Part shown: positions 4,631 to 18,687 of the stretch, piece by piece
Position numbering within the stretch: position 1 is the first letter of the stretch
How the letters are laid out: each line of letters starts with the position of its first letter
Virus record (IMG/VR): IMGVR_UViG_3300044976_000016
Location: 1 to 40,971 of that record
Length of the DNA: 40,971 nucleotides
DNA from: a virus
Lineage: Duplodnaviria; Caudoviricetes
Direction: 5' to 3' (one strand)
Program-made: the position numbers and the translations under genes
Notes under the pieces: generated by a model
The model's database searches: none
What the model was told of the DNA's origin: nothing
What the model saw: the letters and a program-made list of their open reading frames with translations, nothing else

Positions 4631-5695
4631 ATGGGCAACGCGATCACCGACCTCCTGCAAGGCGCAAGTAACGCTGCGGCGTCCAACGTCAGCGGCCCGG
4701 TTGACCTGTTCGCTGCTGCGCTTCGTGCTCTTGGCGTGCCTGTTCCTGAGAACGCGCTTCTCGGCTCGAAGTGGATGGAGGAGCGTGGGCTGACGAAGAA
4801 GCCGCAGAATGCGCTGATGGGCCTGCTGGGTGAGGCTGCCGGGCTGTCTGCTCCGATTGCCGCAGCGGCGAAGGCGCCGCAGATCGCGGCGGGGCTGCTG
4901 AAGCACGCTGACCAGTTCCAAGCCTACAACAAGGCTCTAGGGCCTGCTGGCGCTTCTCAGGCTGTGGTGTGGCACGGTTCGCCGCACAAGTTCGACAAGT
5001 TCGACTCTGCGCACATTGGGAAGGGCGAGGGGGCGCAGGCGTATGGGCATGGGCTGTATCTGGCTGAGTCGCCTGGGGTGGCTGGTTCATATGCAAAGAT
5101 GAACCCTGCGAGCACGGTAAAAGTTCAGCGCGTTTGGCCGTCGCGCGAACACCCAAACGGGGCGTATGAGGCGCTCATGGTGCGTGATAGCGGCCCCCTT
5201 GAAGAGCTTGGGGTGTTTGCGTCAAGGGCAGAAGCTGAAGCCGCGGCGCAGGCCGCCCGTGAATCTGCCAGCAACATCTACAAAGTAGACCTCCCCGACC
5301 CCCTAATAGCGCGGATGCTCGATTGGGATAAGCCGCTGCACAAACAGTCTGCGGAAGTGCAGCAGGCGATCAAAGATTTTGAGCCGATGCTGAAGGCGGC
5401 CGGCATGACAGACCCAAATGGCGGAACGTCTGGATTGCTTGGGAAAGGACTGTATGAGGCTCTTGGCTATGCGATGCGCAGCAAGGCGATAGAGCGCGGC
5501 ACTACGGCTGGCACGACATTGCAGCAGATGCAGGACAACTCATCCCGCGCACTACGGGCGGCCGGCATCCCCGGCATTCGCTACCTAGACAGCGGCAGCA
5601 GAGGCGCAGGCGCAGGCACTAGCAATTTCGTCGTCTTCCCGGGCGAGGAGAACGCGCTGCGCATCTTGGAGCGCAACGGTAGGCCGCTGCCATGA
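4631..5695 (+). CDS. Protein with ADP-ribosyltransferase-like domain of polyvalent proteins (ART-PolyVal-like)
   Basis: Motifs VWHGSPHKFDKF, GEGAQAYGHGLYLAE, IYKVDL, GIPGIRYLD..SR...NFVVF; SD GAGG upstream. Confidence 0.7.
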   Translation: MGNAITDLLQGASNAAASNVSGPVDLFAAALRALGVPVPENALLGSKWMEERGLTKKPQNALMGLLGEAAGLSAPIAAAAKAPQIAAGLLKHADQFQAYNKALGPAGASQAVVWHGSPHKFDKFDSAHIGKGEGAQAYGHGLYLAESPGVAGSYAKMNPASTVKVQRVWPSREHPNGAYEALMVRDSGPLEELGVFASRAEAEAAAQAARESASNIYKVDLPDPLIARMLDWDKPLHKQSAEVQQAIKDFEPMLKAAGMTDPNGGTSGLLGKGLYEALGYAMRSKAIERGTTAGTTLQQMQDNSSRALRAAGIPGIRYLDSGSRGAGAGTSNFVVFPGEENALRILERNGRPLP

Positions 5696-5937
5696 TGCCG
5701 CACCCGACGCGCTTGTATTGGGACGGCGCCAAGGGTTCGGCGTGGTTTCGCGGCACCGGTGTAAAGCTGCATGAACCGCCGGCCCCGTGGGGTGAGCCGC
5801 TTGCTTATGTGGAATACACCCCGCTAGGAAGCTCCACGATTGCAGAAGTGCGAGACCGGGCGATTGACTCTGTGCGACAAATGCGGCAGGACGAGATTGC
5901 GAAGGTGCTGCTGTTCCTCGGCAAGTTGTGCGGGTAG
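5692..5937 (+). CDS. Hypothetical protein; last gene of the rightward operon
   Basis: ATGA-coupled 81-aa ORF. Confidence 0.55.
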   Translation: MMPHPTRLYWDGAKGSAWFRGTGVKLHEPPAPWGEPLAYVEYTPLGSSTIAEVRDRAIDSVRQMRQDEIAKVLLFLGKLCG

Positions 5938-5943
5938 ACCTTG

Positions 5944-5962
5944 CGGCCAATCCTCGTTGGGC
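5944..5962 (+). mobile_element. attI-like simple site 1 (CGGCCAA-TCCTC-GTTGGGC)
   Basis: GTTRRRY core with no attC hairpin; preceded by a 16-bp motif repeated at 6483. Confidence 0.4.
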
Positions 5963-6175
5963 GTCATTCGAGGCAAGGCACAGCCAACGGGTACGCCCTT
6001 TGAACTTTCGCCAGATCGAAGGGGGCTCCAGGGTTCCCCACCCACTCAAAGTGAGCCTTGCGCAGTCTGTTGCGAGTCACGCGCACAAGCTGCGTTTTAA
6101 TCCACGGCAGCGACTAGATCGCCAAGCCGGGCAAAGCGGGTGCAGGTCACCCCTCGGCTTGCCCCTTGCCTGCTC

Positions 6176-6194
6176 TGTCTAGAACGTGTTAGCC
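6176..6194 (+). mobile_element. attI-like simple site 2 (TGTCTAG-AACGT-GTTAGCC)
   Basis: GTT core contains the TAA stop of the minus-strand gene; L-like box resembles that of site 4. Confidence 0.45.
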
Positions 6195-6461
6195 AAGCCG
6201 GCGCCACGGGCGATCCGCCCACCAAGCGCCAAGGCAAAACAGGACGCTGGTTCGACCATGCCGCTCGAAGACAGCTTCTCCTTCTTGCTGCCACTCAACT
6301 ACGCGATCCACGTCGTCCGCCAGCCTCTCGATTGCGTCTGCCGCTTCGCTCAGTGCAACGCTGTGCGGGTCGTCCTGCCCACTAGCAAGGAATCGCAGAC
6401 GTTCCACCAATGCCCGATCTGGCTCCGTGGGCCTGCGGTCGTCTTCCGTCTTCTCATCCAT
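6189..6461 (-). CDS. Hypothetical protein (MDEKTEDD...EAADAIERL)
   Basis: ORF with phage-type coiled-coil motif; stop lies within a GTT core. Confidence 0.55.
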   Translation of the reverse strand: MDEKTEDDRRPTEPDRALVERLRFLASGQDDPHSVALSEAADAIERLADDVDRVVEWQQEGEAVFERHGRTSVLFCLGAWWADRPWRRLG

Positions 6462-6502
6462 CGTCAGCCCTTTCGCGTGTAACGGGTAGACCTTGCGGGA
6501 TC

Positions 6503-6521
6503 GGTTCAACCCCTGTTCGGC
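6503..6521 (+). mobile_element. attI-like simple site 3 (GGTTCAA-CCCCT-GTTCGGC)
   Basis: GTT core at a gene end (…GPNRG*); preceded by the 16-bp repeat. Confidence 0.4.
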
Positions 6522-6880
6522 CCTATGGCCGCAGCAGCGAGCCTGTACATGCGCCGCGCTAGCTCTATTGCGTACGCTTCTTGTGCATGCACTGGCTCGC
6601 CGCATTCAGCGCCGGCCCACTCCTCTGCAATCTCGTGCAGCGCGCGGCGCAGCCGCTCTATCTCGGCCTTTGCATCGCGCAGCATGGCGGGGCTCGGCAT
6701 GTGATCGCCCCTAGCCGCCTCCGCTGCTGGGCGCCACCGCTCGCGCTCTGCGGCCATGGCGGAATCGAGCGCGGCTTGGTCGTACACCGGCCCCCATTCG
6801 CTGACGCTACTGTGGCTTGGCACGCGCTTGCGGAAGATCCAGCTATCTAGCCAGCGCCACCCGCAGGGCTGTACGTTCAT
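6506..6880 (-). CDS. Hypothetical protein (MNVQPCGWRW...AAERERW...EIERLR)
   Basis: SD-like GAAGGGG before ATG; phage early-region motifs. Confidence 0.6.
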   Translation of the reverse strand: MNVQPCGWRWLDSWIFRKRVPSHSSVSEWGPVYDQAALDSAMAAERERWRPAAEAARGDHMPSPAMLRDAKAEIERLRRALHEIAEEWAGAECGEPVHAQEAYAIELARRMYRLAAAAIGPNRG

Positions 6881-6890
6881 GTGATCCCCT

Positions 6891-7181
6891 TCATTGCAGC
6901 GCCCGGCTTCCGAGATGGTGAGGAACTTGGCGCGAAAGCCAGCGCAAGCACTGCTTGAGCGTGCCGCAGTATTCGACCTCGCCTGTCTCCATGTCCCGCA
7001 GCCGGCACGATGTGTAGCCAAGGCGCGGCTCGATCTGCCACTCCCGCCCACCGTGATGGCGAAGGTCAAGCGGTATCACGTCGCGCTCGTCGATGATTGG
7101 CTCGCGGTCTGGGATGCCGATGGAACGCTCATAGTCGGCGCGGTGCTCGGCCCAGCGGAGGGGGCGTTTGGGATTATGCAT
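6891..7181 (-). CDS. Hypothetical protein
   Basis: 96-aa ORF fitting between neighbours on the operon strand. Confidence 0.55.
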   Translation of the reverse strand: MHNPKRPLRWAEHRADYERSIGIPDREPIIDERDVIPLDLRHHGGREWQIEPRLGYTSCRLRDMETGEVEYCGTLKQCLRWLSRQVPHHLGSRALQ

Positions 7182-7202
7182 GGCGGCAAAGTTGCGCGAC
7201 GT

Positions 7203-7221
7203 TGCCTAAAACACGTTAGGC
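7203..7221 (+). mobile_element. attI-like simple site 4 (TGCCTAA-AACAC-GTTAGGC), heading the attC array
   Basis: Resembles the class 1 attI core CCCTAAAACAAAGTT (one base shorter); its R end matches R'' of the next attC at 9/10. Confidence 0.55.
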
Positions 7222-7646
7222 CCGCTTCTCTTGCGAGCCGCCAAGTCTATGAACGCTTGGCAGTTCGTCGCGTCGCACGGCGTGTGATGCCTATGATCCG
7301 GGTCTTCAATCTCCACGCACGCGCCTTGGCCGTCTTCGCACTTGTGCGCGCACTGCACGATGGTTTGCCACCGCTCGCGCTCTGCGGCCACGGCTTCATC
7401 TATCCGGCGTTGCCACTCAATCGGGTGTCCGACCGCCTCAAGTGCGCCAGAGCACTCGCCCAGTTCGGAGCGCAGGCGGTCAATCTCGTCTGCAGCTGCG
7501 TCGGCCTCATCAATCAGCACTTGCAGCGCGTGCATGGCCGGGCGCGTGTTCGTGAACGTGTAGCGCATCACCTCGTTCACGGCTTCGCGCAACGGGCCCA
7601 ACCCGTCAGTCAACCGGACCTTGGCCGGCGTTGCTTGGTCAGTCAT
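7206..7646 (-). CDS. Cassette A hypothetical protein (MTDQATPAKVRLTDGLGP...GPNVF)
   Basis: SD AGGAG and ATG lie in the loop of attC 7596-7690. Confidence 0.65.
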   Translation of the reverse strand: MTDQATPAKVRLTDGLGPLREAVNEVMRYTFTNTRPAMHALQVLIDEADAAADEIDRLRSELGECSGALEAVGHPIEWQRRIDEAVAAERERWQTIVQCAHKCEDGQGACVEIEDPDHRHHTPCDATNCQAFIDLAARKRSGPNVF

Positions 7647-7690
7647 CGTTGCTCCTGTTGCGGCCAAGGCCGGTTACTTCTACGTTGTGC
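7596..7690 (+). mobile_element. attC-like site 1
   Basis: GCCCAAC-CCGTC-AGT(C)AACCGG(A)CCTTGGCCG...CGGCCAAGGCCGGTTACT-TCTAC-GTTGTGC. Confidence 0.85.
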
Positions 7691-7697
7691 CCCAGCC

Positions 7698-8552
7698 TTA
7701 CGCCACTGCCAGGACATGCCCACGCGGCACCTTGAAACCGGCCGCCTTGGCGTGCCCACCACCGCCGTACTGCTTCGCCACCTCCGACACGTCCACGCCT
7801 TCGTCGGTGGCGCGCAGGCCGAACACGCGGCCCTCGGCCGTGTCCCAGTAGCAGGCCGCGAACGGCTCGCCCTGCGCCATTAGGTGCGCCGCGTCGCTCA
7901 CCAGCGTGTAGGGCAGGCTGGCCACCGGCACGTCATAGGCGCCGATCACCATGCGCCGCTTGCACACCGCGACCAGCTCGGCCACATCCTTGTGGTGCTT
8001 GCGCTCGATGGCGGCGCCCGCCGCGGTCATCTTCAGCAGTTCCACCTGATCGGCGCTCATCAGCTTGTCCCACAACTCGAAGCTGTATTCGTGCGAGAAC
8101 ACGAACGCCTGAATCTCGCGCGTGCCCGGCAGCTTGAAGCGCCACAGGTCGCGGTCCTCCACATGGCCCAGCAGCAGCGGGCGGTCTTCGCCGGGGAAAA
8201 GGTAGTCCCAGGCCAGCGTGGCGCCGCTGCGGTTCAGGTCGGTGAAATGCGCCAGTTGCTTCGGCTCGCCGGTCCACGAGTCCTGCATGAACAGCGGCTG
8301 CAGGTCTTCGATGGCGGTCTTGTGGTGGTCGATCAGGCACACGCTGTTGGCCTCGGCCAGCATGCGCTCCACCACCGCGCGCTTGTAGCTGAAGTCCACC
8401 AAGAACACGTCGCGCCCGCGCACGTCGGGCGGGTCTTGCTGGTACACGCCGGCCACGTAGTCAGCGCCGGTGCCGTACTTCCGCCAGAAGCACCAGGCGG
8501 CGCTGAAGCCGTCCGCGCAGTTGCCGTGGTAGATCACAAGGGGTCGGTTCAC
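7698..8552 (-). CDS. DHH/DHHA1-family phosphoesterase (NrnB/oligoribonuclease-like), cassette B
   Basis: Motifs YHGNCADG, LVDF, IDHH, EDRDLW, GGGGH..AAGF; SD AAGGA before GTG. Confidence 0.85.
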   Translation of the reverse strand: MNRPLVIYHGNCADGFSAAWCFWRKYGTGADYVAGVYQQDPPDVRGRDVFLVDFSYKRAVVERMLAEANSVCLIDHHKTAIEDLQPLFMQDSWTGEPKQLAHFTDLNRSGATLAWDYLFPGEDRPLLLGHVEDRDLWRFKLPGTREIQAFVFSHEYSFELWDKLMSADQVELLKMTAAGAAIERKHHKDVAELVAVCKRRMVIGAYDVPVASLPYTLVSDAAHLMAQGEPFAACYWDTAEGRVFGLRATDEGVDVSEVAKQYGGGGHAKAAGFKVPRGHVLAVA

Positions 8553-8582
8553 TCGTCTTTCCTTTGGCTTCGGGTGAGAGGG

Positions 8583-8640
8583 GCACAACCCCTCAGTCAA
8601 CGCGACGGCCTACGGCCGCGCGTTACTTCGATCGTTAGGC
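8583..8640 (+). mobile_element. attC-like site 2 (58 bp)
   Basis: GCACAAC-CCCTC-AGT(C)AACGCG(A)CGGCC-TAC-GGCCGCGCGTTACT-TCGATC-GTTAGGC; same architecture as aadA-type 59-base elements. Confidence 0.9.
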
Positions 8641-8642
8641 GT

Positions 8643-8840
8643 CTATTCGTCCTGCATAGATTTCAGCCCCATCGATTCGCGCAGCATCCGTTCCACCTGA
8701 AACAGTGCTTCACGAACCGCGCCAATTTCGTCCACGCTGTACGTCACCAAGTGGCTGGCGTCTTTGTAGCCTTCCCACTTGACCGTGCCGGAGTCAAGGC
8801 GGCGGCGCTTTCCAGTGCGAATCTGAATTTCAATGTCCAT
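8643..8840 (-). CDS. Cassette C hypothetical protein (MDIEIQIRTGKRRR...)
   Basis: Single ORF filling the cassette; stop 2 bp from R'. Confidence 0.6.
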   Translation of the reverse strand: MDIEIQIRTGKRRRLDSGTVKWEGYKDASHLVTYSVDEIGAVREALFQVERMLRESMGLKSMQDE

Positions 8841-8869
8841 CGTCGTTTTCCGTGTTCGTTCACCAAGAC

Positions 8870-8932
8870 GCCTAACTGTCGCTTCGAGCGGACGGCCCCC
8901 AAGGGGCCGCGCGCTCAAGCTAATCGTTAGGC
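8870..8932 (+). mobile_element. attC-like site 3
   Basis: GCCTAAC-TGTC-GCTT(C)GAGCGG(A)CGGCCCC-CAA-GGGGCCGCGCGCTCAAGC-TAATC-GTTAGGC. Confidence 0.88.
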
Positions 8933-8940
8933 CACGCAAT

Positions 8941-9138
8941 TCAGTAGTCGCGCGCCCGTGCCGCAGCTTCGCGGCTCTCTTTGGTGCTCGTCAGCGCCTG
9001 GGAATACATAGCCGCGTACCCATTGGATGCCGGCTCCACAGCAACGCCTCCGGCCGGCGTCCAGCCGCGATCCAGCAACTCATTCACCTTCAGCTCAAGC
9101 TCGCTTGGCCCGTAGCCGGTAGCAATCTGGTAGTCCAT
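8941..9138 (-). CDS. Cassette D small protein, DUF1737-like
   Basis: Pattern Y.I.....L...VNE.L..GW...GG....Y.QA; SD AGGAG. Confidence 0.6.
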   Translation of the reverse strand: MDYQIATGYGPSELELKVNELLDRGWTPAGGVAVEPASNGYAAMYSQALTSTKESREAAARARDY

Positions 9139-9165
9139 CGTTCTCTCCTTCGGCCACCATGCGTG

Positions 9166-9252
9166 GCCTAACCCGTCACTCCAAGCGGACGCCCGGCGGC
9201 ATCCGCGCCCTTCGGCCCTGCCGTGCAGGCGCCGCTTAGTTCTGCGTTCGGC
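9166..9252 (+). mobile_element. attC-like site 4
   Basis: GCCTAAC-CCGTC-ACT(CC)AAGCGG(A)CGCC...GGCGCCGCTTAGT-TCTGC-GTTCGGC. Confidence 0.85.
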
Positions 9253-9253
9253 T

Positions 9254-9633
9254 TCACTTCTGCGCGCCGACGCTCATGAACGGCACAGGGTGCTAGGCAC
9301 GATGGAATAGCGCACGGTTAGGCTTGTCTTCACGGGTTGCGTGTCGCTCGTGGCGCCGTCCGCCTCCTTAACGTCTGCCTGTTCGGCGCGGATGTTGAAA
9401 ATGCTCAGTGCCTGCCAGGGCGCGATGAGCGTGAACCCATCGTTCTCGATGCCCTTGATCGCTCCCCCGACGGTGATGACGCCGCGGTGCCCTGTCGGCA
9501 CGGTGCGAATCGGCCAGAACATCACCAGCAGGACCAGCAGCACGAACACAGCCATGCCGTCGCGCACCAACGGGAATACGCGAACGGCATTCCCGCGCGG
9601 GGTTGCTTCAAGGTATCGATTCAGAAAGCTCAT
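9254..9633 (-). pseudogene. SPFH/prohibitin (band 7) gene with apparent internal deletion, cassette E
   Basis: TM helix then TVPTGHRGV...APWQ...TSDTQPV...VRY breaks off at ~110 aa; an out-of-frame tail PVPFMSVGAQK* ends next to R'. Confidence 0.65.
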
Positions 9634-9667
9634 TCATTCCTCCAGTTGTGGCTTCGTTGTGGGTGAA

Positions 9668-9724
9668 GCCGAACCCATCGCTGAACGGGACGCCTAGCGG
9701 CGCCCGTTAGCTCCACCGTTAGGC
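9668..9724 (+). mobile_element. attC-like site 5 (57 bp)
   Basis: GCCGAAC-CCATC-GCT(G)AACGGG(A)CGCC-TAGC-GGCGCCCGTTAGC-TCCACC-GTTAGGC. Confidence 0.9.
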
Positions 9725-9964
9725 GTCGAAGTCATCGCGCGCCGGTTTGTTGATTTGACGCTCCGCTTTGTGGGTGCGCCGCTTGTGGTGCTTCCCGCCT
9801 CGTGGCGACAAAGTGCCGCCCGCCTTGTTGTAGGGCCGCGCGCTCCAGTATTCGTAGCCGGTGCCTTTGGGCTCCTTGCAGGTGCGTTTCCTCGCGCTCA
9901 CGACGCCTAACCTTTCGCTCAAGGGCGACCCAGCACGGCGGGTCGCGTTGTCACGCTTCGGCAC
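9719..9964 (-). CDS. Cassette F small basic protein (…KGTGYEYWSARP…HKAERQ)
   Basis: TAA stop inside R' of site 5; start uncertain (GTG in the attC 6 loop or near 9901). Confidence 0.55.
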   Translation of the reverse strand: MPKRDNATRRAGSPLSERLGVVSARKRTCKEPKGTGYEYWSARPYNKAGGTLSPRGGKHHKRRTHKAERQINKPARDDFDA

Positions 9965-10006
9965 GGCCCGTGCGCCGTGCTGATCGCCTTAGCTCAATCG
10001 TTAGGC
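9905..10006 (+). mobile_element. attC-like site 6
   Basis: GCCTAAC-CTTTC-GCT(C)AAGGGCGACCCAGCACGGCG...CGCCGTGCTGATCGCCTTAGC-TCAATC-GTTAGGC. Confidence 0.85.
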
Positions 10007-10375
10007 CCGCTCCAGCCATCGGCTAGCCAGAAACGCCACCGCTGCGGCCTTGTGCTCGTGCTTTGGCGCGAAGGAGCCCTGAATCACCTGCAGGTGCCGC
10101 ATCGCCTTCCGCAGGTCGATTCCCGCCCTCGGCGTCGGCGCTTGCTTCAGTCCGCAGTAAAACCACTCAGCCTGCCATTGCGCCCACGGGTGCGCGCTGC
10201 ACTTGAACTCGTCAGGAATCTGGCTGTACTCAGGCATCAGTTTCAGGGCGCGCGCCGGGAACGCGCAGTCGGCATCTGTCACATCATGCGGCGTGTCAAA
10301 GTCCGCGCGCTCCGGCTCCAGCCGCCCAACCCCTCGGTGAACGGCGACGCCCGCCGGCTGGTCACTCTTGCTCAT
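10001..10375 (-). CDS. Cassette G phage-type hypothetical protein (…SFAPKHEHKAAAVAFL)
   Basis: SD AGGAGG and ATG in the attC 7 loop; TAA stop in R' of site 6. Confidence 0.7.
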   Translation of the reverse strand: MSKSDQPAGVAVHRGVGRLEPERADFDTPHDVTDADCAFPARALKLMPEYSQIPDEFKCSAHPWAQWQAEWFYCGLKQAPTPRAGIDLRKAMRHLQVIQGSFAPKHEHKAAAVAFLASRWLERA

Positions 10376-10425
10376 CTGCCACCTCCTGCGCGGCCGTCGG
10401 TCGCGCGTTACCTCGAACGTTGGGC
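10324..10425 (+). mobile_element. attC-like site 7 (imperfect inner stem)
   Basis: GCCCAAC-CCCTC-GGT(G)AACG...CGTTACC-TCGAAC-GTTGGGC. Confidence 0.75.
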
Positions 10426-10622
10426 GTCTTACTGCGCACCGACTCAAGCGCTCCGCAACGCGGGCAGAGCTCATCGGCGGCGCCGTATGCTGCGCGGCAG
10501 TGCGCGCACTCGTATCCAGTAACCTGCTTACTGGTTTGCGGCTTATCCAGCAACCCAGGTTGCTGCCTTGCGGCCTGCCGTGCGGCATCGCGCCGCGCGT
10601 GATCTGTGGTGTACCAGCTCAT
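10362..10622 (-). CDS. Zinc-ribbon protein (CAHC...CPRC); C-terminus reads through the attC 7 right arm
   Basis: Two CxxC pairs; ATGA-coupled to the upstream gene; ends KTPNVRGN... Confidence 0.6.
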   Translation of the reverse strand: MSWYTTDHARRDAARQAARQQPGLLDKPQTSKQVTGYECAHCRAAYGAADELCPRCGALESVRSKTPNVRGNARPTAAQEVADEQE

Positions 10623-10807
10623 GTGTCGTCCCATTCCAGCATCCAGTGCGGCATTGCCACTCGCGCCATCATCCACTCCGGCCACGCCCGCACTTCGCGC
10701 TGCGCTGCCGTTATCTGCGCCAGTAGAGCCGCGCGCTTCGGACACGGCCGCCCAACACGCCGTTCGAGCCGAGGCGCAACGGCAGCTTTTCGCTTCGGGT
10801 CAGTCAT
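10619..10807 (-). CDS. Cassette H hypothetical protein (MTDPKRKAAVAPRLERRVGRP...)
   Basis: ATG in the loop of attC 8; N-terminus encoded by the attC arm. Confidence 0.55.
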   Translation of the reverse strand: MTDPKRKAAVAPRLERRVGRPCPKRAALLAQITAAQREVRAWPEWMMARVAMPHWMLEWDDT

Positions 10808-10837
10808 CGCGCGCCCGGCTCAACGGCAACGTTGGGC
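10750..10837 (+). mobile_element. attC-like site 8
   Basis: GCCCAAC-ACGC-CGTT(C)GAGCCG(A)GGCGC...GCGCCCGGCTCAACG-GCAAC-GTTGGGC. Confidence 0.85.
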
Positions 10838-10977
10838 GTCTTGCTGCACACGGCCCGCGCCACGTTAAGCGCTCTGAGCTTCGCGTCGATGTCGGCAACC
10901 GGCTCGCGCATGAAGTCGATGGTGATGCCGTGCTCATGGCCCTGCGCTTCCGGGTCGCGGCAAGCCGCGCCGTGCAA

Positions 10978-10996
10978 CTTAGCTCCCACGTTAGGC
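10978..10996 (+). mobile_element. attC right half-site (L' CTTAGC-TCCCAC-R' GTTAGGC); left arm missing
   Basis: Same L'/R' spacing as sites 5 and 6; contains the TAA of gene 10991..11218. Confidence 0.6.
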
Positions 10997-11218
10997 CCTG
11001 CGCACTGCGGCTGTGCAGTCCCATCCCACATTTTCACTGGGCTTCACTCCGCGCCGTCTGCACTCTGTCATGTAGTGCGCAAGCGCCTGGTCTGCAGCAT
11101 GGTCGAGTGCCGCCTGCCAGCAGCGGCGCAATCGCCGCGTCTCTAGGTCGTCGTCGCTCGGCAGGTACTTTCCACCGCGACACTCTGCTTCCCACTTAGC
11201 CCACTCATCAAATTTCAT
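10991..11218 (-). CDS. Hypothetical protein (MKFDEWAKWE...RCWQAAL)
   Basis: SD GAGGA; stop lies in the R' box. Confidence 0.6.
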   Translation of the reverse strand: MKFDEWAKWEAECRGGKYLPSDDDLETRRLRRCWQAALDHAADQALAHYMTECRRRGVKPSENVGWDCTAAVRRA

Positions 11219-11258
11219 GTTGTCCTCGCTGTAGGTGCGCTGTTAAGCGGACTGCCTG

Positions 11259-11281
11259 CGTTAACATTGCGCTCAAGCGGA
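11259..11281 (+). mobile_element. attC left half-site (CGTTAAC-ATTGC-GCT(C)AAGCGG(A)); right arm missing
   Basis: R''/L'' spacing as in site 6; lies within a 31-aa minus-strand ORF 11215..11310 (MSEPTQAVGAPLERNV...). Confidence 0.5.
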
Positions 11282-11313
11282 GCACCAACGGCCTGGGTAG
11301 GTTCACTCATTTC

Positions 11314-11532
11314 TCAGGCCTTCAATTCAAAGCGCAATCGGTCAACGAAGTCTGCGCACTCGTTTCTGTAGCGCGCCCATCCCGCGTAAGGCGTGGGAGG
11401 CTGCTTGGGAAGCGCTTGCAAAATGCGCGTCACCAACGGGCGATCGTCTTCCTGTAGTGGGCGCACTTCCGCGCGCTCCGGCGCCAGGCCGAACCCTGCG
11501 TTCGAGCCGTTCAGCAGCATCGGGCGCTTCAC
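11314..11532 (-). CDS. Hypothetical protein
   Basis: GTGA-coupled chain in the early-left operon. Confidence 0.5.
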   Translation of the reverse strand: MKRPMLLNGSNAGFGLAPERAEVRPLQEDDRPLVTRILQALPKQPPTPYAGWARYRNECADFVDRLRFELKA

Positions 11533-11699
11533 GAAAACATCCCTCGCTCGATCGGCAAGCCTTCTTCTACCATGCGCGCAGCCTCGCGCAGCGCCCAGGC
11601 AATCGCGGCGCGGTCGTCTTTGCTGCTCCCGGCGTCACTCACGCTCACGTCCAGTTCGCCATCGTCGTCGTGCTGAATCACTACCGTGTACGTGCTCAT
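11529..11699 (-). CDS. Hypothetical protein (MSTYTVVIQHDDDG...)
   Basis: Purine-rich RBS; coupled to neighbours. Confidence 0.55.
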   Translation of the reverse strand: MSTYTVVIQHDDDGELDVSVSDAGSSKDDRAAIAWALREAARMVEEGLPIERGMFS

Positions 11700-11713
11700 G
11701 TTTTCTCTCTTCG

Positions 11714-12160
11714 TTACGCCCGCTGGCTCAGGTGATGCTTTGACCACGGCCCGCGGATCATCCTCTCGAATCTCTCGCGCGCCTCGGGATTGTGGTCGAT
11801 GTCGGCGCGGCTATCGACTCCGCAGATCATGCGAACGACACATGCTGCGCGGTCTGCACCGCTGCCGGCTTGGAATGCGTGCGTAACCTCCTCGCACGCT
11901 TCCAGATATGTGTCCGACAGCCACAACTGAAACTCCAGCTCGTTGCACCGCATGCCGAGCCATTTGGAAATCTCGCCGCCCTTCGGCTTCTCGGGCTTTT
12001 CAACGACGGTAAGCAGCCGCGCGAGAGCGATAGGCGTTCCGGGGGCGCCGAATAGCCGGAAGCCGTCCTGCGCGTGGCGCGGCTCGATGTCGCAGACGAT
12101 CCTAAGCGTTCCGTCGGCCATCGTCTGAAGGCGCACGGTGGAGGCTTCGATTGCGCTCAT
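11714..12160 (-). CDS. Phage hypothetical protein (…TMADGTLRIVCDIEP…CGVDSRADID)
   Basis: ATGA-coupled; composition typical of lambdoid early proteins. Confidence 0.65.
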   Translation of the reverse strand: MSAIEASTVRLQTMADGTLRIVCDIEPRHAQDGFRLFGAPGTPIALARLLTVVEKPEKPKGGEISKWLGMRCNELEFQLWLSDTYLEACEEVTHAFQAGSGADRAACVVRMICGVDSRADIDHNPEARERFERMIRGPWSKHHLSQRA

Positions 12161-12429
12161 GGCATCGGCCTTTCGGGACGCATGCACTTCCCGGCGTGAG
12201 AGCAGTGCGGTTGCCATATGCAATCGTGTTCACTCGCGCATTTGCGGCTGCTCTCGATGGCGAGCGCATCGCGCAATCGCTCAATCTCCGCGTCTGCTGA
12301 CAGCGTCAGTTCGGCCGCAGCGTGGCGGGCGTCTCGGTGGCCGTACTTGTAGCCACGGCAGAAGGCGTCGGATTCAGCGCCAGCATCCACATTGTCCGGC
12401 AGGTTCATGATCTGTCTGTGAAGGCTCAT
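12157..12429 (-). CDS. Hypothetical protein (MSLHRQIMNL…GHRDARHAAAE)
   Basis: ATGA-coupled. Confidence 0.6.
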   Translation of the reverse strand: MSLHRQIMNLPDNVDAGAESDAFCRGYKYGHRDARHAAAELTLSADAEIERLRDALAIESSRKCASEHDCIWQPHCSHAGKCMRPERPMP

Positions 12430-12728
12430 GTCTGCACCATCGCAGCAGCAGCGCGCACGATTGCGCGGCGTGTGGCGGCGCCGACGTTCTCCGCGCCTTT
12501 AAATGGCTCTTGAACTTCGACCGCTTCACATTGCGTATCCTTGCCGGGGTAGCCCCATACCTCTGTGTATCGGCTATGCCCGATGTCCACAGTAAGGCTC
12601 AGTTCCACCGCAAGACGCAGCGCATCACCGTCGTCGGTTAGCGGGTTCCACTTGCCGTGCGACAGGAGATTCTCGTACTCCACGCCAGCCGCCTTAGCGG
12701 CCCTCTCCAGCAGTTCGCGGTCTGTCAT
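12426..12728 (-). CDS. Phage hypothetical protein (MTDRELLERAAKAAG…WNPLTDDGDALRLAV…ATRRAIVRAAA)
   Basis: Recognisable widespread phage motif set; SD GGAG. Confidence 0.75.
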   Translation of the reverse strand: MTDRELLERAAKAAGVEYENLLSHGKWNPLTDDGDALRLAVELSLTVDIGHSRYTEVWGYPGKDTQCEAVEVQEPFKGAENVGAATRRAIVRAAAAMVQT

Positions 12729-12763
12729 AACTTCATCTCCCCGATAACGACGAGGCTTGGGCA

Positions 12764-13096
12764 TCACGCCACCATCGCCTGCATGGCCTGCTGCAGCGCC
12801 TTCGCGCGCTCGCGGTGCCTGCTCTGCCGCTCGGCATGCGTTCGCGGTGCGGGCCGGGGCGCGTTGCGTCCCTTGCCCAGCTTGTACGCCCGGAGCGTCC
12901 GTCGGCCTCGGGTGTCCTCGTGCCACGCGGCAACATGGATCAGCCCGCGAGCGAACAACGTGGCGATGTAGCGCCGCGTCGTGGTGTAGCTGACGCCTGT
13001 CTCGTCGCTGATGTCCACCACCGACACGGGTCCGTGCATCAGGGCTTCGATCATGATGGCCGACGACAGGTGATTGAGAGTTGACGGTCGTTTCAT
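12764..13096 (-). CDS. Winged-helix DNA-binding protein
   Basis: SVVDISDETGVSYTTTRRYI HTH followed by IHVAAW…YKLG wing. Confidence 0.65.
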   Translation of the reverse strand: MKRPSTLNHLSSAIMIEALMHGPVSVVDISDETGVSYTTTRRYIATLFARGLIHVAAWHEDTRGRRTLRAYKLGKGRNAPRPAPRTHAERQSRHRERAKALQQAMQAMVA

Positions 13097-13803
13097 GCCG
13101 CCTCTTTCGCCGGATTGGCCTTGATGAACGCCCGCAAGCGGGACTCAGGTGTGGAACCGCCGCCGGGGCCTTTCAGGAAGCCCCACACACACATCTTTTC
13201 CTCGTTCGTCGGCAGCGAGTAGTAGCCCTTCGCGGCTTCCAGTTCGCGGCCGGATGTGAACAGGTCCAGCATGTCGGCGGCGTACACCTCAAGCTCGTCA
13301 ACACGCTCCTGAGTCAAGCCGTCCATGCGCTCGATGCGCTCCTGATCCCGCCAGTGCTTGTCAGCGGACGCGACGTACTTGGAGTCATCCCACATGCCCG
13401 AGAAGATGTCGCCAGCGAAGCCGAGGTAACTCGCGCACTTCACCAGCGCGTCGGTGACGGACTTCTTTGGCGCGTCCTCGTCCACCATCAGCCCGCCGTC
13501 GCTTTTCTTGTACGTGGCCTTCGTCTGCCCGATCTGCTGCAACTCCCCGCGCTTGCCGTCGAGCACGTACCAAAGCGACACGACGGCGATGTGCAGGGTG
13601 TCGGTGTCGGTCAGGCGCTCCATGCGCTCACTGGCGATCTGGAAGCCCCAGCCGATGCCGCATGGCCCGAACTCGTCGGTCAGGCGCTCGACGATCCAGT
13701 ACGGTTTCGGACTGTTGCCCTTGTACTGCTTGCCGGTGATCGGCTTTACCGCCTTCGGGTCGGTGGTGAAGGCGCGTTCCCACAGTGCCTTATTCGGGTT
13801 CAC
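13093..13803 (-). CDS. Rad52/Sak-like single-strand annealing protein
   Basis: Motifs LTDEFGPCGIGWG, DEDAPKKSVTDALVKCASYLGFAGDIF, DDSKY. Confidence 0.75.
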   Translation of the reverse strand: MNPNKALWERAFTTDPKAVKPITGKQYKGNSPKPYWIVERLTDEFGPCGIGWGFQIASERMERLTDTDTLHIAVVSLWYVLDGKRGELQQIGQTKATYKKSDGGLMVDEDAPKKSVTDALVKCASYLGFAGDIFSGMWDDSKYVASADKHWRDQERIERMDGLTQERVDELEVYAADMLDLFTSGRELEAAKGYYSLPTNEEKMCVWGFLKGPGGGSTPESRLRAFIKANPAKEAA

Positions 13804-13921
13804 GCATGCTCTCCTGTTGCTCGCACTGAGCAGTGATGATTGCCTCGCGCTGGTATTCCTCGGCCAGCACATCTAGGATGGATTCGAGCGCCGCTTCGAC
13901 GGCTTCGTCTTCGTCGTTCAT
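13790..13921 (-). CDS. Small acidic protein (MNDEDEAVEAALES…)
   Basis: ATGA-coupled; very acidic. Confidence 0.45.
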   Translation of the reverse strand: MNDEDEAVEAALESILDVLAEEYQREAIITAQCEQQESMREPE

Positions 13922-14145
13922 TGCCACGCCCACCGCGCCCACTCGAAGAGGCGCCACAGCCCAGCGACGGCCAGCACCACGCCGCAGACAGCGAAGGGCC
14001 AGACAATCGCGCCGCGACCTTCGACGGGATCGTCCTGGCCGATGTCCGTAGCAGCCTCGGCGTAGCACTGGCCGGGGCTCTGGCACTCGGTGCGGCCTTG
14101 CCAGCAGTCGCCGCGGCAGCCTGTGAAGCGCATGGCCGGGCTCAC
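13918..14145 (-). CDS. Small Cys-containing membrane protein
   Basis: CxxxCxQGRxxC motif plus C-terminal TM helix; coupled. Confidence 0.5.
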   Translation of the reverse strand: MSPAMRFTGCRGDCWQGRTECQSPGQCYAEAATDIGQDDPVEGRGAIVWPFAVCGVVLAVAGLWRLFEWARWAWQ

Positions 14146-14321
14146 GACAGCCACCCCACAGCGACAGCAGCGAGGACAGCGACGAGGCCGACAGCGATGA
14201 GCAGATCGGTAATCGCGTGGCGGCGCTCGAAGCTATAGACGGCATAGGCGCTATCGACCGTGCTGGCTCCGGTGCGAGGCGCATAGCGCCAGCGCCTCCA
14301 GTGCGTGTCCTTGGGGCTCAT
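14142..14321 (-). CDS. Small membrane protein (MSPKDTHWRRWRY…LLIAVGLVAVLAAVAVGWLS)
   Basis: Read manually; overlapping stop/start at both ends. Confidence 0.5.
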   Translation of the reverse strand: MSPKDTHWRRWRYAPRTGASTVDSAYAVYSFERRHAITDLLIAVGLVAVLAAVAVGWLS

Positions 14322-14545
14322 TGCTTGCCCTCCGCTTTGGCGATGGCATACCGTGCCATTTCGGCCATGTTCTCAGCCAGCAACTCGGCCAACTGCTCGC
14401 ACAGATCGCGCAGTGCTTCGCACTCTGTGGGTCCGCGACCGGTGGGGCCGTTTGCCTCGCCCTCATCGGCCTTGAGATATGCCATCCAGTCGTACATCGT
14501 GGTAGGCACGGGAGGGCGCACGTAGGATGTGACGATGAGGCTCAT
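14318..14545 (-). CDS. Hypothetical protein (…PPVPTTMYDWMA…G.GPTE.EAL.DL)
   Basis: SD GGAGG, ATGA coupling; phage-type motif. Confidence 0.65.
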   Translation of the reverse strand: MSLIVTSYVRPPVPTTMYDWMAYLKADEGEANGPTGRGPTECEALRDLCEQLAELLAENMAEMARYAIAKAEGKQ

Positions 14546-14745
14546 TGCTTGCCCTCCGCTATCTCGCACTGATCCGTTGCGTCGAGCAGCATCTGCGCCA
14601 GCGCTCGCGCCTTCGCGGGCGGTAGCCGCACGCCTCCGCTCATCGGGCCGGCGAACAGGTGAAACCAAACGGTCTTGTTGTCAGGCCTGGCGGAGAAGTC
14701 CCATTCGACTTCGTGGGGCAGATTGATAATGATGTGCTTCGTCAT
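14542..14745 (-). CDS. Hypothetical protein
   Basis: ATGA-coupled. Confidence 0.55.
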   Translation of the reverse strand: MTKHIIINLPHEVEWDFSARPDNKTVWFHLFAGPMSGGVRLPPAKARALAQMLLDATDQCEIAEGKQ

Positions 14746-15299
14746 GCCGCCCCCTGGTCTTCCGCTGCGCTGATCGCCGCCTCTTCCGCGGCCTCGGCTG
14801 CCTCGCCTTCGAGCCGGAGCGTGATCGCATCGACCAGTTCATCGGCCAGCGTATCGCCAGCGTTGTCCCCGAAGGCCTCCGCGGGCGCCATCCACTCGCC
14901 ACCGAACCAGATCAGCAGGTCATCGATCTCGCTGCTCGTGCGACCGTGCAGGTCTTCGTCCACGTAGAACGACACGAGCACGTGCATGTCGGCCTTGCCG
15001 AGCGTGACGGTGTGGCGCTCGTAGTGCTGCCACCGCGGCCCGATGGGCTTCGGCGGGTGCTTCATCGCGTCCAACTCCGCGCGGAGGTGGCGGGCTTCGG
15101 CGGTCATCTCCCCGACCGTGCCTGCGAGCCGCGCGATGCGCTGGGCGTCGCTCTCGACGTGCGCGGGGTACTGAGCCCGCTCGCCGGTCAGCGGCGGAAC
15201 CTGCGCCCAGCGGTGCTCCAGCATGCGGGCGCTGCCGGTGGGCTCGTTGCCAGGAATGTCGGCGGTTGTGACGCCGGGCGGCATGTTCCAGGTGCTCAT
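14742..15299 (-). CDS. First gene of the early-left operon (MSTWNMPPGVT..DIPGN), acidic C-terminus
   Basis: SD GGAGG; directly downstream of the pL-like promoter. Confidence 0.65.
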   Translation of the reverse strand: MSTWNMPPGVTTADIPGNEPTGSARMLEHRWAQVPPLTGERAQYPAHVESDAQRIARLAGTVGEMTAEARHLRAELDAMKHPPKPIGPRWQHYERHTVTLGKADMHVLVSFYVDEDLHGRTSSEIDDLLIWFGGEWMAPAEAFGDNAGDTLADELVDAITLRLEGEAAEAAEEAAISAAEDQGAA

Positions 15300-15357
15300 C
15301 GCTGCATCCCTCCGCGCCGCTGACTCCCACGAGCCACATTGCGACGCGATGGAAGAG

Positions 15358-15386
15358 ATTAGACAAGGCTGACCAAGGCTTGTCAA
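15358..15386 (-). promoter_or_regulatory. pL-like sigma70 promoter (TTGACA-17-TCTAAT) with TTAGACA/TGTCTAA operator-like boxes
   Basis: Perfect -35 and 17-bp spacer; TTAGACA recurs inverted at ~15396 and at ~15723 in pR. Confidence 0.7.
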
Positions 15387-15435
15387 TACAAAACTGTCTA
15401 ATCCCGACAAAAATACAAGGGATTGCGGGGCCTAC

Positions 15436-15741
15436 TCAAGGCGCCCGGTACAGCAGTTCCCACGCCCGCAGGCCGCATCCTGCCGCAATTTCTTCCAGCT
15501 TGTCCAGCGTCACGGCATGCTGGCCTTTCGCGGCCCTGGCGATCAGCCGCACATCAAGCCCGCGAGCCATGGCCCAGGCACGCACGCTAGGGCGCTTCCC
15601 ACGCGGTGTGTCGGCCGCGATCATCCGCCGCAAATTTGCGGCAAGAATGGCTCGAGCCGACTCGTGATGCAGAAAAAGACCGCGCGGCTTAGTATGGTAT
15701 GAATGTTGAAAAACTTGCACTCTTAGACAGGATTGCCGCAC
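15436..15741 (-). CDS. Short XRE-family HTH repressor (CI-like); start uncertain
   Basis: ILAANLRRM…VTLDKLEEIAAGCGLRAWELL; divergent from the cro-like gene; no peptidase domain. Confidence 0.7.
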   Translation of the reverse strand: MRQSCLRVQVFQHSYHTKPRGLFLHHESARAILAANLRRMIAADTPRGKRPSVRAWAMARGLDVRLIARAAKGQHAVTLDKLEEIAAGCGLRAWELLYRAP

Positions 15742-15744
15742 AAT
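15715..15744 (+). promoter_or_regulatory. pR-like promoter (TTGCAC-18-CACAAT), probably giving a leaderless cro mRNA
   Basis: -10 ends 6 nt before ATG 15751; no SD; TTAGACA box in the spacer. Confidence 0.55.
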
Positions 15745-15750
15745 GCTCCC

Positions 15751-15948
15751 ATGTTGACACGAGAGTCTTTGGCCGATCTGTTGCGCGATGTGCGCGTCAT
15801 TGATGTTGCCCGCGAAGCCGCGGTCTGCACGAAGACGATCTATCGCCTACGGCACCAGGCACACGCGCCCACCCTCACCACGCTGGAGCGTGTGCTCAAG
15901 GCAGTTGAGCGCGTCAAAGAGCGCAAGGCCGCGCCTGATGCTGCTTGA
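15751..15948 (+). CDS. Cro-like HTH protein
   Basis: VIDVAREAAVCTKTIYRLR…PTLTTLERV. Confidence 0.75.
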   Translation: MLTRESLADLLRDVRVIDVAREAAVCTKTIYRLRHQAHAPTLTTLERVLKAVERVKERKAAPDAA

Positions 15949-16165
15949 CGCCATGGCCCCGTGCCAGGGTCGTCACATCGCTGTGAGCAATCGGCATGCC
16001 GGTATCTGCATCGGCTGCGCACGCTGGCACCCGCGCACGCGCTCGCCGCGAGCGATCGAGCCCGCAGCGGCCCAAGACGCGGAAGGCGTCTATCAGTGCA
16101 TCAACAGGCGCAGCAGTGGACATCCGGTCACTGTGGACCTCGAACAGTCGGCGTCACATCCCTAA
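15938..16165 (+). CDS. Small Cys-rich hypothetical protein
   Basis: Overlaps the cro stop; C…CxxCxR…C pattern. Confidence 0.45.
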   Translation: MLLDAMAPCQGRHIAVSNRHAGICIGCARWHPRTRSPRAIEPAAAQDAEGVYQCINRRSSGHPVTVDLEQSASHP

Positions 16166-16207
16166 CTCTCGGCATGTGGCAATAAACAGCATTCGGAGAA
16201 GTCGGGA

Positions 16208-16441
16208 ATGGTCGAACTCAAGCCTTGCCCCTTCTGCGCCGCCGATGGCGAGTGGATGATGGACCTGTTTGACACGTTCGACGCCGGCCACATCGCATAC
16301 GTCCGATGCGGTCGATGCGACTCCGCTGGGCCGAGCAAGTATTCCGAGGTCAGCGCGCAGGACGCGGCCAATGAAGCGCGGGTCATGTGGAACCGGAGGT
16401 GCCGTAGGCAATCCTCGTGCCCTCCGCTTTCCTGTCGTTGA
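16208..16441 (+). CDS. Lar-family (restriction alleviation-like) zinc-ribbon protein
   Basis: ELKPCPFC…VRCGRC…GP…A…WNRR signature. Confidence 0.7.
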   Translation: MVELKPCPFCAADGEWMMDLFDTFDAGHIAYVRCGRCDSAGPSKYSEVSAQDAANEARVMWNRRCRRQSSCPPLSCR

Positions 16442-16453
16442 GATGAGGGCAGC

Positions 16454-16660
16454 ATGAACCGCTACGCAACCCAAGGCCGGCTGCTCATCGAGGCGATCCG
16501 CAATCGCCCGATGACGTATCAAGAAATGCTCAAGGTCGGCATCTCGACGGCGCCCTGGAAGCGCGTGGCCGAAAGCCTCGGCCCGCAAGAACGCATCAGC
16601 AAGGGCGTGCGGGTCGTCGGCGGGCGCTCTCTCGTGACGTGGCGGGTGGTGCGGGCGTGA
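16454..16660 (+). CDS. Small putative DNA-binding protein
   Basis: SD GAGG; GTGA-coupled to the initiator gene. Confidence 0.6.
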   Translation: MNRYATQGRLLIEAIRNRPMTYQEMLKVGISTAPWKRVAESLGPQERISKGVRVVGGRSLVTWRVVRA

Positions 16661-17469: not shown

Positions 17470-17930
17470 TCGACCGAAAACGCCTCGCCGCGAGCCTCGC
17501 AGGAGCCTACGGGTTCTACGGCCAGGAGCTGACCGAATTTGCCATGCGCGTATGGGCTGACGCCCTGGACGGCATCGACGCAGACACCATCGACGCGGCA
17601 TTCTCGCGGCACCTGCGCGACATCGATGCTGGGCGCTGGTGCCCCAAGCCGGCGGACATCCTGCGGCAGATTCGCGGCGATGTGGCCGAGCAGGCGCTGA
17701 TTGCCTGGGGTGAGGTGATTTCGGCGGCGCGCTCCGGTGGCGGTGTGTTCGATGGACCCACGCAGCGGGCCATCGACAGCATGGGCGGGATGGGTCGTTT
17801 GAGGCTGGCGCGCGAGGACGAGAACGGCTTTCTGCAGCGGCAATTTGTCGCGGCTTACAAGGCATTCAGGGCGCGCGAGGAATCGCCTCCGCTGCTGGAG
17901 ACTGATGCGGTCAAGAGGCTTACGGCATGA
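17466..17930 (+). CDS. Putative helicase loader / P-like replication protein
   Basis: Follows the initiator; W…L…AF..H…PKPADI…AW…MGG…F..AY pattern. Confidence 0.6.
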   Translation: MIDRKRLAASLAGAYGFYGQELTEFAMRVWADALDGIDADTIDAAFSRHLRDIDAGRWCPKPADILRQIRGDVAEQALIAWGEVISAARSGGGVFDGPTQRAIDSMGGMGRLRLAREDENGFLQRQFVAAYKAFRAREESPPLLETDAVKRLTA

Positions 17931-18115
17931 CACCTCACTGCATGGGCGGCTGGTGCGATTTCCGCCACCGCTGCCACGATCACCTCAAGGAAGACAGGAC
18001 CATCGTGGTCGAGCGGTTGTGCAAAAAGGGCCAGGAGATGCCGACGACGCCCTATGACAGCGACCCAAGGTTCGCTCAGTGGGTGGCAGCGAGAAGGCCG
18101 GAGAAAGTTTCGTGA
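17927..18115 (+). CDS. Small Cys-rich protein (CMGGWC..R..C)
   Basis: ATGA-coupled. Confidence 0.55.
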   Translation: MTPHCMGGWCDFRHRCHDHLKEDRTIVVERLCKKGQEMPTTPYDSDPRFAQWVAARRPEKVS

Positions 18116-18681: not shown

Positions 18682-18687
18682 AGGTGG

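What the first reader, a model, noticed from the sequence alone, without database searches (positions are those of the whole stretch)
7596..10837. attC loops double as translation-initiation modules and attC arms are translated
Seen: the longer sites carry gene starts in their loops. Site 1 has AGGAG-N5-ATG (7646) and site 7 has AGGAGG-N6-ATG (10375). Site 8 has an ATGA stop/start overlap (10804-10807), and site 6 has a possible GTG (9964). The arms therefore encode recurring peptide ends: N-terminal VRLTDGLG, SPLSERLG, VAVHRGVG, PRLERRVG, APLERNV and C-terminal GPNVF, KTPNVRGN, KTPNVAVE, GPNRG. Inference: the recombination site also supplies the RBS and translational coupling, so shuffled cassettes stay expressed in a polycistronic mRNA despite the strong hairpins.
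Basis: partly seen in the sequence, partly recalled or inferred. Interest (0 to 1): 0.72.

Follow-up and report, generated by a model that had tools for sequence, protein, structure and literature searches.

The report
Phage attC loops supply gene starts
A complete phage genome carries eight integron-type recombination hairpins in front of its small accessory genes instead of behind them, and three of the long hairpins hold a start codon (two with a ribosome-binding motif) that likely begins the next protein, so the hairpin would work as a swappable start module for whichever gene is joined behind it.

Summary
Mostly confirmed, with corrections. Eight attC sites lie at 7596-10837 of a complete 40.9-kb phage that has no integron integrase; an attI-like core heads the array. 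All genes run antisense to attC polarity, so each site precedes the gene of its own cassette. Loop ATGs at 7646 and 10375 (with Shine-Dalgarno motifs) and 10807 (no motif, ATGA overlap) are supported by homologues; the GTG at 9964 is not (likely start 9901, past R''). Among 126 long phage sites, 64 have a loop SD+ATG opening at least 40 codons past R'' (3.1 expected, 0 on the other strand, 1 of 104 bacterial sites), and such sites mostly lack a downstream start (13 of 69 against 90 of 129 short sites). Near-identical copies of site 1 head eight different cargo genes. Stop/start coupling is a minority (11 of 61). The unit usually moved is site plus gene, crossing at R'; sites are also re-joined to new cargo at R''. 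No expression or recombination was shown. Phage attC clusters are published (PMC9892861); I found no paper on this inverted, start-donating layout. This scan reported it before on other DNA. New variant of a known kind.

The parts
7201..7221 (+). attI-like core at the 5' end (top-strand sense) of the array; no intI beside it
   Evidence: same layout and spacing as the site next to intI in L094 and L145 and L304; pattern built after seeing these sites, 0.085 hits per shuffled genome
7206..7646 (-). 146-aa cargo gene of cassette 1; first 17 codons come from site 1, C-terminus crosses the attI-like core
   Evidence: L370 has the same cargo with its own ATG at the position of R''
7596..7690 (+). 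attC site 1 (95 bp, top strand +); loop holds AGGAG (7656-7652) and ATG 7646 on the - strand
   Evidence: family of 8 copies with 8 different cargos
7698..8552 (-). DHH phosphoesterase, cargo of cassette 2; GTG start with SD motif downstream of R''
   Evidence: phrog_4771 E 1e-103; same cassette ends in L023 and L024
8583..8640 (+). attC site 2 (58 bp, short, no loop start)
8643..8840 (-). 65-aa cargo gene of cassette 3, start outside the hairpin
8870..8932 (+). attC site 3 (63 bp, short, no loop start)
8941..9138 (-). 65-aa DUF1737-like cargo gene, AAGGAG-led start outside the hairpin
   Evidence: Pfam E 4e-5, just under the cut-off
9166..9252 (+). attC site 4 (87 bp, two extra bases in L''); loop ATG stops within the arm, so no working loop start
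9274..9633 (-). short (119 aa) Band 7/SPFH-domain gene, start outside the hairpin
   Evidence: Pfam PF01145 E 9e-9
9668..9724 (+). attC site 5 (57 bp, short)
9719..9901 (-). 60-aa basic protein (phrog_7399); likely start GTG 9901 just past R'', with an SD-like AAGG in the L''-R'' spacer
9905..10006 (+). attC site 6 (102 bp); no loop ATG; GTG 9964 unsupported
10001..10375 (-). 124-aa cargo (phrog_36680); first 17 codons from site 7; stop is the TAA in R' of site 6
10324..10425 (+). attC site 7 (102 bp); loop holds AGGAGG (10387-10382) and ATG 10375; upstream gene stops 14 nt past this ATG
10362..10622 (-). 86-aa second gene of cassette 8 (two CxxC motifs); reads across the R' crossover of site 7 and stops in its loop
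   Evidence: no family found; weak coding score
10619..10807 (-). 62-aa first gene of cassette 8; first 19 codons from site 8
   Evidence: 8 of 8 homologues have an arm-type leader
10750..10837 (+). attC site 8 (88 bp); ATG 10807 without SD motif, in the predicted stem, overlapped by the upstream stop (ATGA)
10804..10976 (-). 5'-truncated gene remnant that reads across R' of site 8 and stops on the ATGA
   Evidence: 62% identity to the middle of a longer gene in L102
10977..10996 (+). half site: L'-spacer-R' only
11259..11285 (+). half site: R''-spacer-L'' only; encodes APLERNV in the 31-codon ORF 11215-11310
11488..11509 (+). half site: R''-spacer-L'' only; lies in the N-terminal part of ORF 11314-11532

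Best explanation
This phage carries an integrase-less array of integron cassettes whose genes run antisense to the attC sites, so each hairpin sits in front of its own gene, and in long sites the loop holds an SD motif and ATG that likely start translation and add a 17-19-residue leader encoded by the L''-R'' arm. Shown in sequence: site anatomy and polarity, gene strand, SD+ATG excess, frame bias, missing downstream starts, sharp sequence break at the R' crossover, one site family on many cargos. Inferred: (1) IntI from the host or a co-infecting phage inserts or excises [site + gene] units at R' on the bottom strand, so a cassette brings its own start; (2) transcription comes from a phage early promoter on the far side, making the attC bottom strand the mRNA; (3) the purine-rich loop stays open enough for the 30S subunit and the elongating ribosome melts the 3' arm; (4) about a third of upstream genes read across the crossover in one fixed phase and some stop on the loop ATG, giving occasional coupling; (5) more rarely a site core is joined to new cargo at or just after the GTT of R'', by top-strand IntI recombination, by cassette formation, or by homologous recombination in the arms.
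For: Sites beyond chance; cassette-end inverted repeats match neighbours, 10 of 5040 permutations, and 7.14 of 10 against 5.04 shuffled in 178 phage cassettes, as in 91 bacterial ones. Cargo strand: phage 211 bottom, 2 top, 51 unclear; bacterial genomes 65 top, 6 bottom, 93 unclear. Loop SD+ATG open 40 codons or more past R'': 64 of 126 long phage sites, 3.1 after loop shuffling, 0 on the top strand, 0 of 122 short phage sites, 1 of 104 long bacterial sites; 18 of 55 loop families against 1 of 44. Open loop ATGs fall in two phases (66 and 38) and almost never the third (1). Downstream SD+start within 60 nt: 13 of 69 loop-start sites (6 in frame) against 90 of 129 short sites, Fisher p 5e-12. 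Site 7 cargo has an invariant Pro29 upstream of the first downstream GTG; site 1 cargo is conserved from the first codons after R''; 8 of 8 site 8 homologues keep an arm-type leader. SD region and ATG predicted less paired (0.49, 0.68) than the site mean (0.36) in 64 sites. Gene keeps the site in front (10 of 26 pairs at 70% core identity or more) and not the one behind (1 of 17; random 4%); identity falls to random exactly at the AAC of R'. Two viral contigs carry a full IntI co-oriented with inverted cargo.
Against: No expression, N-terminal or recombination data. No IntI in this complete genome, and half or collapsed sites at 6476, 10977, 11259 and 11488 show decay and non-IntI rearrangement. 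62 of 126 long phage sites lack the SD+ATG signature, and only 18 of 55 loop families have it. Site 8's ATG has no SD motif, is predicted paired (0.06) and depends on a truncated upstream ORF. Homologue N-termini are gene-caller output, not experiments. 16 of 26 cargo-homologous pairs do not share a similar site. Site pairs and families are not independent, and 93 of 164 bacterial orientations were unclear. No sigma-70-like promoter was found by the consensus scan of 5600-18500.
Confidence: 0.72

Rival explanations
1. The loop starts are real, but the sites are integron relics no longer used by IntI; they persist as short conserved boundary sequences at which phage homologous recombination (a Rad52-like annealing protein) swaps genes and leaders.
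For: No IntI in the genome; half sites that keep only the coding arm; a hybrid site in L015 with the site 7 leader behind an unrelated 5' arm, and L374 likewise for site 1; the R''-side break is spread over about 6 nt; ORF 13093-13872 has a Rad52-family look-alike at score 0.95, family on 11% of members, a lead only.
Against: Sharp break at the AAC of R'; paired arms with extra bases kept on one strand in 8 of 8 sites; arm changes that keep pairing in the DHH cassette's site in L023 and L024; phage contigs with intact IntI and attI-like cores; a site 1-type inverted cassette inside an otherwise forward array in L245.
Confidence: 0.15
2. One reading: each site belongs to the gene before it (as in bacterial cassettes) and donates RBS, start and coupling to whichever cassette is shuffled in behind it.
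For: Same site with different downstream cargo in 43 of 45 long-site pairs with similar cores; site 7 cargo carries different arm-type leaders; top-strand recombination at R'' is a documented minor reaction (PMC5027507, passages).
Against: Extra bases put the preferred crossover at R', upstream of the loop on the mRNA; the site behind a gene is random (1 of 17) while the site in front is partly kept (10 of 26); coupling in only 11 of 61 sites.
Confidence: 0.08
3. The loop SD+ATG motifs are by-products of the purine-rich attC bottom strand and true starts lie downstream of R''.
For: True for site 6; bottom strands of attC sites carry a nucleotide skew (PMC5027507, abstract passage); 52 of 104 long bacterial loops also have a bottom-strand ATG.
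Against: Composition-preserving shuffles give 3.1 against 64; bacterial sites give 1 of 104; downstream starts are missing where loop starts exist; conserved residues lie upstream of the first downstream start codon.
Confidence: 0.05

Closest known systems
Phage-borne CALINs (clusters of attC sites lacking an integrase), Qi et al. 2023, PMC9892861 (read parts 1-4 of 7 of the text and searched passages; supplements and figures not seen)
   Same: Several attC sites in one orientation in a phage genome without intI; that paper showed 5 of 6 phage attC sites recombine with attI1 via IntI1, bottom strand preferred.
   Different: The paper calls the arrays typical; the words opposite, antisense, start codon and ribosom* do not occur in its main text. 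Here genes are antisense to the sites, start inside the loops, and an attI-like core heads the array. Its supplementary annotations, which I did not see, could show the same layout unremarked.
Sedentary chromosomal integron cassette arrays
   Same: Same attC anatomy, same cassette-end inverted repeats, same R' crossover, similar attC sites on unrelated genes (about 80% identity within an array; PMC5371416, passages).
   Different: Bacterial cargo is on the top strand (65 against 6), the site follows the gene, and long loops lack the SD+ATG signature (1 of 104).
Translation through or inside att sites in class 1 integrons: small ORFs in attC (Jacquier et al. 2009, seen only as cited in PMC11511950, passages), the gcuF1-blaOXA-28 fusion read through attC (PMC3375312, passages), ORF-11 in attI1 (recalled; also named in an earlier finding)
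   Same: Ribosomes cross an att hairpin and affect or supply expression of the next gene.
   Different: Those are top-strand cases, described as exceptions; here the site's bottom strand carries the gene's own SD, ATG and N-terminus, in about half of long phage sites.

Membership tests
integron attC site | R''/R' boxes with conserved AAC/GTT, 5-nt and 5-6-nt spacers, paired L''/L' boxes | tested here: met
   8 of 8 sites, L pairing 7 of 7, R pairing 5-7 of 7
integron attC site | extrahelical bases on the L'' arm giving strand polarity | tested here: met
   extra base(s) in L'' on the + strand in all 8 (C in 6, G in 2); no site scores on the - strand
integron attC site | single strand folds into the hairpin | tested here: met
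   predicted DNA folds for 6 sites and RNA folds for 4; prediction only
integron attC site | recombined by IntI on the bottom strand at G/TT of R' | tested here: inconclusive
   comparative break at the AAC of R' fits; no assay possible
CALIN | two or more attC sites within a few kb and no intI | tested here: met
   8 sites in 3.2 kb; TIGR02249 absent from the complete genome
complete integron | intI gene beside the array | tested here: not met
   present in related viral contigs L094 and L145
complete integron | attI site at the head of the array | tested here: inconclusive
   attI-like core at 7201-7221 by a pattern made after the fact
canonical gene cassette | gene on the top strand, followed by its attC, expressed from Pc near attI | tested here: not met
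   7 of 8 window cassettes called bottom strand, 1 unclear
canonical gene cassette | R'' complementary to the R' at the cassette's other end | tested here: met
   10 of 5040 permutations; cassette 7 matches poorly (3 of 10)
known structured RNA families (Rfam) | match above gathering score | tested here: not met
   0 matches in the window

The most novel reading that the evidence does not exclude
Phages run their own inverted integron system and make cassettes de novo: an attC core with built-in SD, ATG and leader is an autonomous start module that is joined at R'' to ordinary phage genes (replacing their native start), after which IntI moves the new unit at R', also into bacterial arrays. Phage populations would then be a visible cassette factory.
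Probability: 0.3. Interest if true: 0.85.

Novelty: new variant of a known kind. Interest (0 to 1): 0.64.

Why it matters
It changes what an attC site can be: one sequence serving as single-strand recombination substrate, ribosome-loading site and protein N-terminus. It suggests that phages use integron recombination for their own accessory genes, with a layout that standard integron annotation would misread. Near-identical site cores on unrelated phage genes, whose homologues also exist without any site, give a concrete junction (R'') at which to test how cassettes are made, a process described as largely unknown (PMC5371416, passage).

Tried and rejected
Rfam scan: nothing. Cultured-phage collection: only DHH-gene matches in Caulobacter and Brevundimonas phages, no match to the sites, so no cultured carrier was found. 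First two-arm pattern was too strict (8 loci). Promoter/terminator scan uninformative. Sequencing runs: no RNA holder listed; contigs of run X1, which may be the source, agree with the window over the eight sites and break at 8694-8718 and 8902-8928 with lower depth, which I could not interpret. No LexA-box match printed for 5500-19000. GTG 9964 rejected as a start. 'ATGA' alone rejected as a sign of coupling: 63 of 126 long sites have it simply because second codons often begin with A; only stops of real upstream ORFs were counted. Top-strand translation of the arms rejected (0 of 126). Pfam, PHROGs and NCBIfam gave no function for most cargo. Searches of earlier findings by place and by sequence gave nothing. 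No structure prediction or complex job was run, as none bears on the claim.
Full report
Setting. The window is a complete 40,971-base phage genome (71-nt terminal repeat; virus record with direct terminal repeats) with SU10-type portal and capsid genes and a terminase. The finding lies in a leftward block of small accessory genes.

The sites. A polarity-aware scan finds eight sites between 7596 and 10837 and none elsewhere; 40 shuffled genomes gave no hit at score 24 or more (the scan was loosened after one search missed sites 5 and 7). All have R'' (AAC), a 5-nt spacer, an L'' with extra base(s), a paired stem, L', a 5-6-nt spacer and R' (GTT) on the + strand. The two ends of each cassette are inverted repeats of one another more than of other cassettes (10 of 5040 permutations). 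The same holds in 178 phage cassettes (7.14 of 10 against 5.04 shuffled) and 91 bacterial ones (7.31 against 5.11). At the head of the array, 7201-7221 resembles the core next to intI in L094, L145 and L304 (pattern made after the fact). No IntI is in the genome. Half or collapsed sites lie at about 6476-6521, 10977-10996, 11259-11285 and 11488-11509.

Polarity. The extra bases make + the top strand, but the genes are on -. After removing near-duplicates there were 276 viral sites (109 of 226 loci) and 173 bacterial sites (77 of 143 loci). With a self-trained codon model, cargo was bottom-strand in 211, top-strand in 2 and unclear in 51 viral sites; top-strand in 65, bottom in 6 and unclear in 93 bacterial sites (sites with under 270 nt of flank left out). 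The phage cassettes are inverted: on the mRNA the site comes before its gene.

Starts in the loops. AGGAG-N5-ATG (7646), AGGAGG-N6-ATG (10375) and the ATGA at 10804-10807 are as described. Of 126 long (80-130 bp) viral sites with 200-nt flanks, 64 have an SD match of 4 or more bases, an ATG in the loop and at least 40 open codons past R''; shuffling each loop gives 3.1, the top strand 0, 122 short viral sites 0, and 104 long bacterial sites 1. By loop family the figures are 18 of 55 and 1 of 44, so the trait is common, not universal. Open ATGs fall in two phases (66, 38) and once in the third; these give the LSxxLG and VERxVR peptide types. Predicted unpaired probability in 64 sites is 0.49 for the SD region and 0.68 for the ATG against 0.36 for the whole site; in the window 0.74 (site 1), 0.54 (site 7), 0.26 (site 6 GTG), 0.06 (site 8).

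Site by site. Site 1: a homologue in L370 starts with its own ATG where the window has R'', and conservation begins at the next codons; the window's downstream starts have no SD. Site 7: 16 of 17 hits were aligned; Pro29 is invariant and precedes the first downstream GTG (Val32); seven homologues have other arm-type leaders and three have very short native N-termini. None of the 14 viral loci with this cargo had a detected site. Site 8: 8 of 8 homologues keep an arm-type leader, but there is no SD motif and the overlapping upstream ORF is a 5'-truncated remnant of a longer gene. Site 6: 15 of 16 homologues start at or after Val22 (GTG 9901) and none at the loop GTG, so this start is rejected. 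These N-termini are gene-caller output.

Read-through and coupling. Upstream genes cross the R' crossover at 34 of 102 long and 29 of 109 short sites, in one phase in 63 of 66 cases (three mid-length sites included), which yields the PN motif. Among 61 loop-ATG sites with a callable upstream gene, 46 have an SD motif; the upstream stop overlaps the ATG in 11 (exact ATGA in 6), and in only 2 of the 15 without SD. Coupling is real at some junctions, including sites 7 and 8 here, but depends on the neighbour.

What moves. Where two sites share the cargo's 5' end, their cores are 70% alike or more in 10 of 26 pairs; where they share the upstream gene's 3' end, in 1 of 17; random pairs 4%. The DHH cassette keeps the same ends in L023 and L024 and similarity breaks at the AAC of R'. 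In same-site pairs identity drops to random just outside that AAC. So the usual unit is site plus gene, as IntI bottom-strand recombination predicts (PMC5027507, passages). Yet site 1 is 83-91 of 95 identical to six copies in five other loci, and its family of 8 has 8 different cargos and 8 different upstream neighbours (L371-L375 were found through the leader peptide). On this side identity stays near 1.0 through the GTT of R'' and reaches random within about 6 nt (pairs not independent). Cores are therefore also joined to new cargo at R''. Top-strand IntI recombination, cassette formation and homologous recombination in the arms all fit, and I cannot separate them. Hybrid sites in L015 and L374 show that exchange inside the site also happens.

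Source of integrase. Two viral loci carry a full IntI (466 and 462 bits, cut-off 265) just past an attI-like core and on the same strand as inverted cargo; L094 also has the DHH gene. L245, a 2.8-kb contig of a bacterial MAG, has a site 1-type site and two antisense genes among 110-bp sites with one forward gene. Whether any IntI acts on this phage today is not shown.

Literature. Phage CALINs and IntI1 activity on phage attC sites are published (PMC9892861; parts 1-4 of 7 and passages; supplements unseen). Small ORFs in attC are cited as anecdotal exceptions (PMC11511950, passages), and read-through of an attC gives a fusion protein in one class 1 integron (PMC3375312, passages). Ten searches showed no paper on inverted phage cassettes or loop starts; the library lacks most subscription papers. 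This scan has reported the inverted layout in at least 40 genomes and loop starts in at least 5; those notes are not independent evidence, and I had stated the inverted reading before looking.

Verdict. It works like an integron cassette array and meets the CALIN definition, fails the canonical cassette orientation, and is not a complete integron. New variant of a known kind; interest 0.64.

Noticed in passing
window 7201-7221: attI-like core heading the array, with no intI beside it; L015 has a similar core at the end of its array.
   Followed up: partly
L094 8434-9450 and L145 3766-4788: Viral contigs with a full integron integrase on the same strand as inverted cargo, directly past an attI-like core: complete inverted integrons in phage DNA.
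   Followed up: partly
L245 1777-1872 and 2155-2264: A site 1-type site and antisense phage-like genes inside an array of 110-bp sites with a forward gene, on a short bacterial MAG contig; may show uptake of phage cassettes by a host integron.
   Followed up: partly
window 11259-11285, 11488-11509, about 6790-6810: Sites that lost one arm keep the R''-L'' arm, the one that codes for the N-terminus; ORF 6506-6880 matches a cassette gene in L135/L153 and lies beyond the attI-like core.
   Followed up: partly
L108 421, L150 2545, L118 3561, L372 4316: Cassettes whose 5' part looks like a sigma-70 promoter on the bottom strand, possibly promoter cassettes for the inverted array.
   Followed up: no
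window 9274-9633: Band 7/SPFH gene only 119 aa, covering profile positions 2-73 of 176; probably truncated; an R'-like word lies inside it at 9317.
   Followed up: no
window 5931-5946 and 6483-6498: 16-bp direct repeat, the second copy inside the collapsed site at 6476-6521.
   Followed up: no
window 13093-13872: Probable single-strand annealing protein (Rad52-family look-alike, lead only; PHROGs call it exonuclease).
   Followed up: partly
downstream of R'' in many phage sites, e.g. window 10306-10323: A short conserved stretch (peptide type RLEPER or LVNEAKE) follows R'' in unrelated cargos, and in some sites the loop ORF stops a few codons later as a leader peptide.
   Followed up: no
window 4631-5695: Weak match to an ADP-ribosyltransferase domain of polyvalent proteins (PF18760, under the cut-off).
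   Followed up: no
window 27108-27425: Five copies of a 54-nt coding repeat in the 26367-27758 gene.
   Followed up: no
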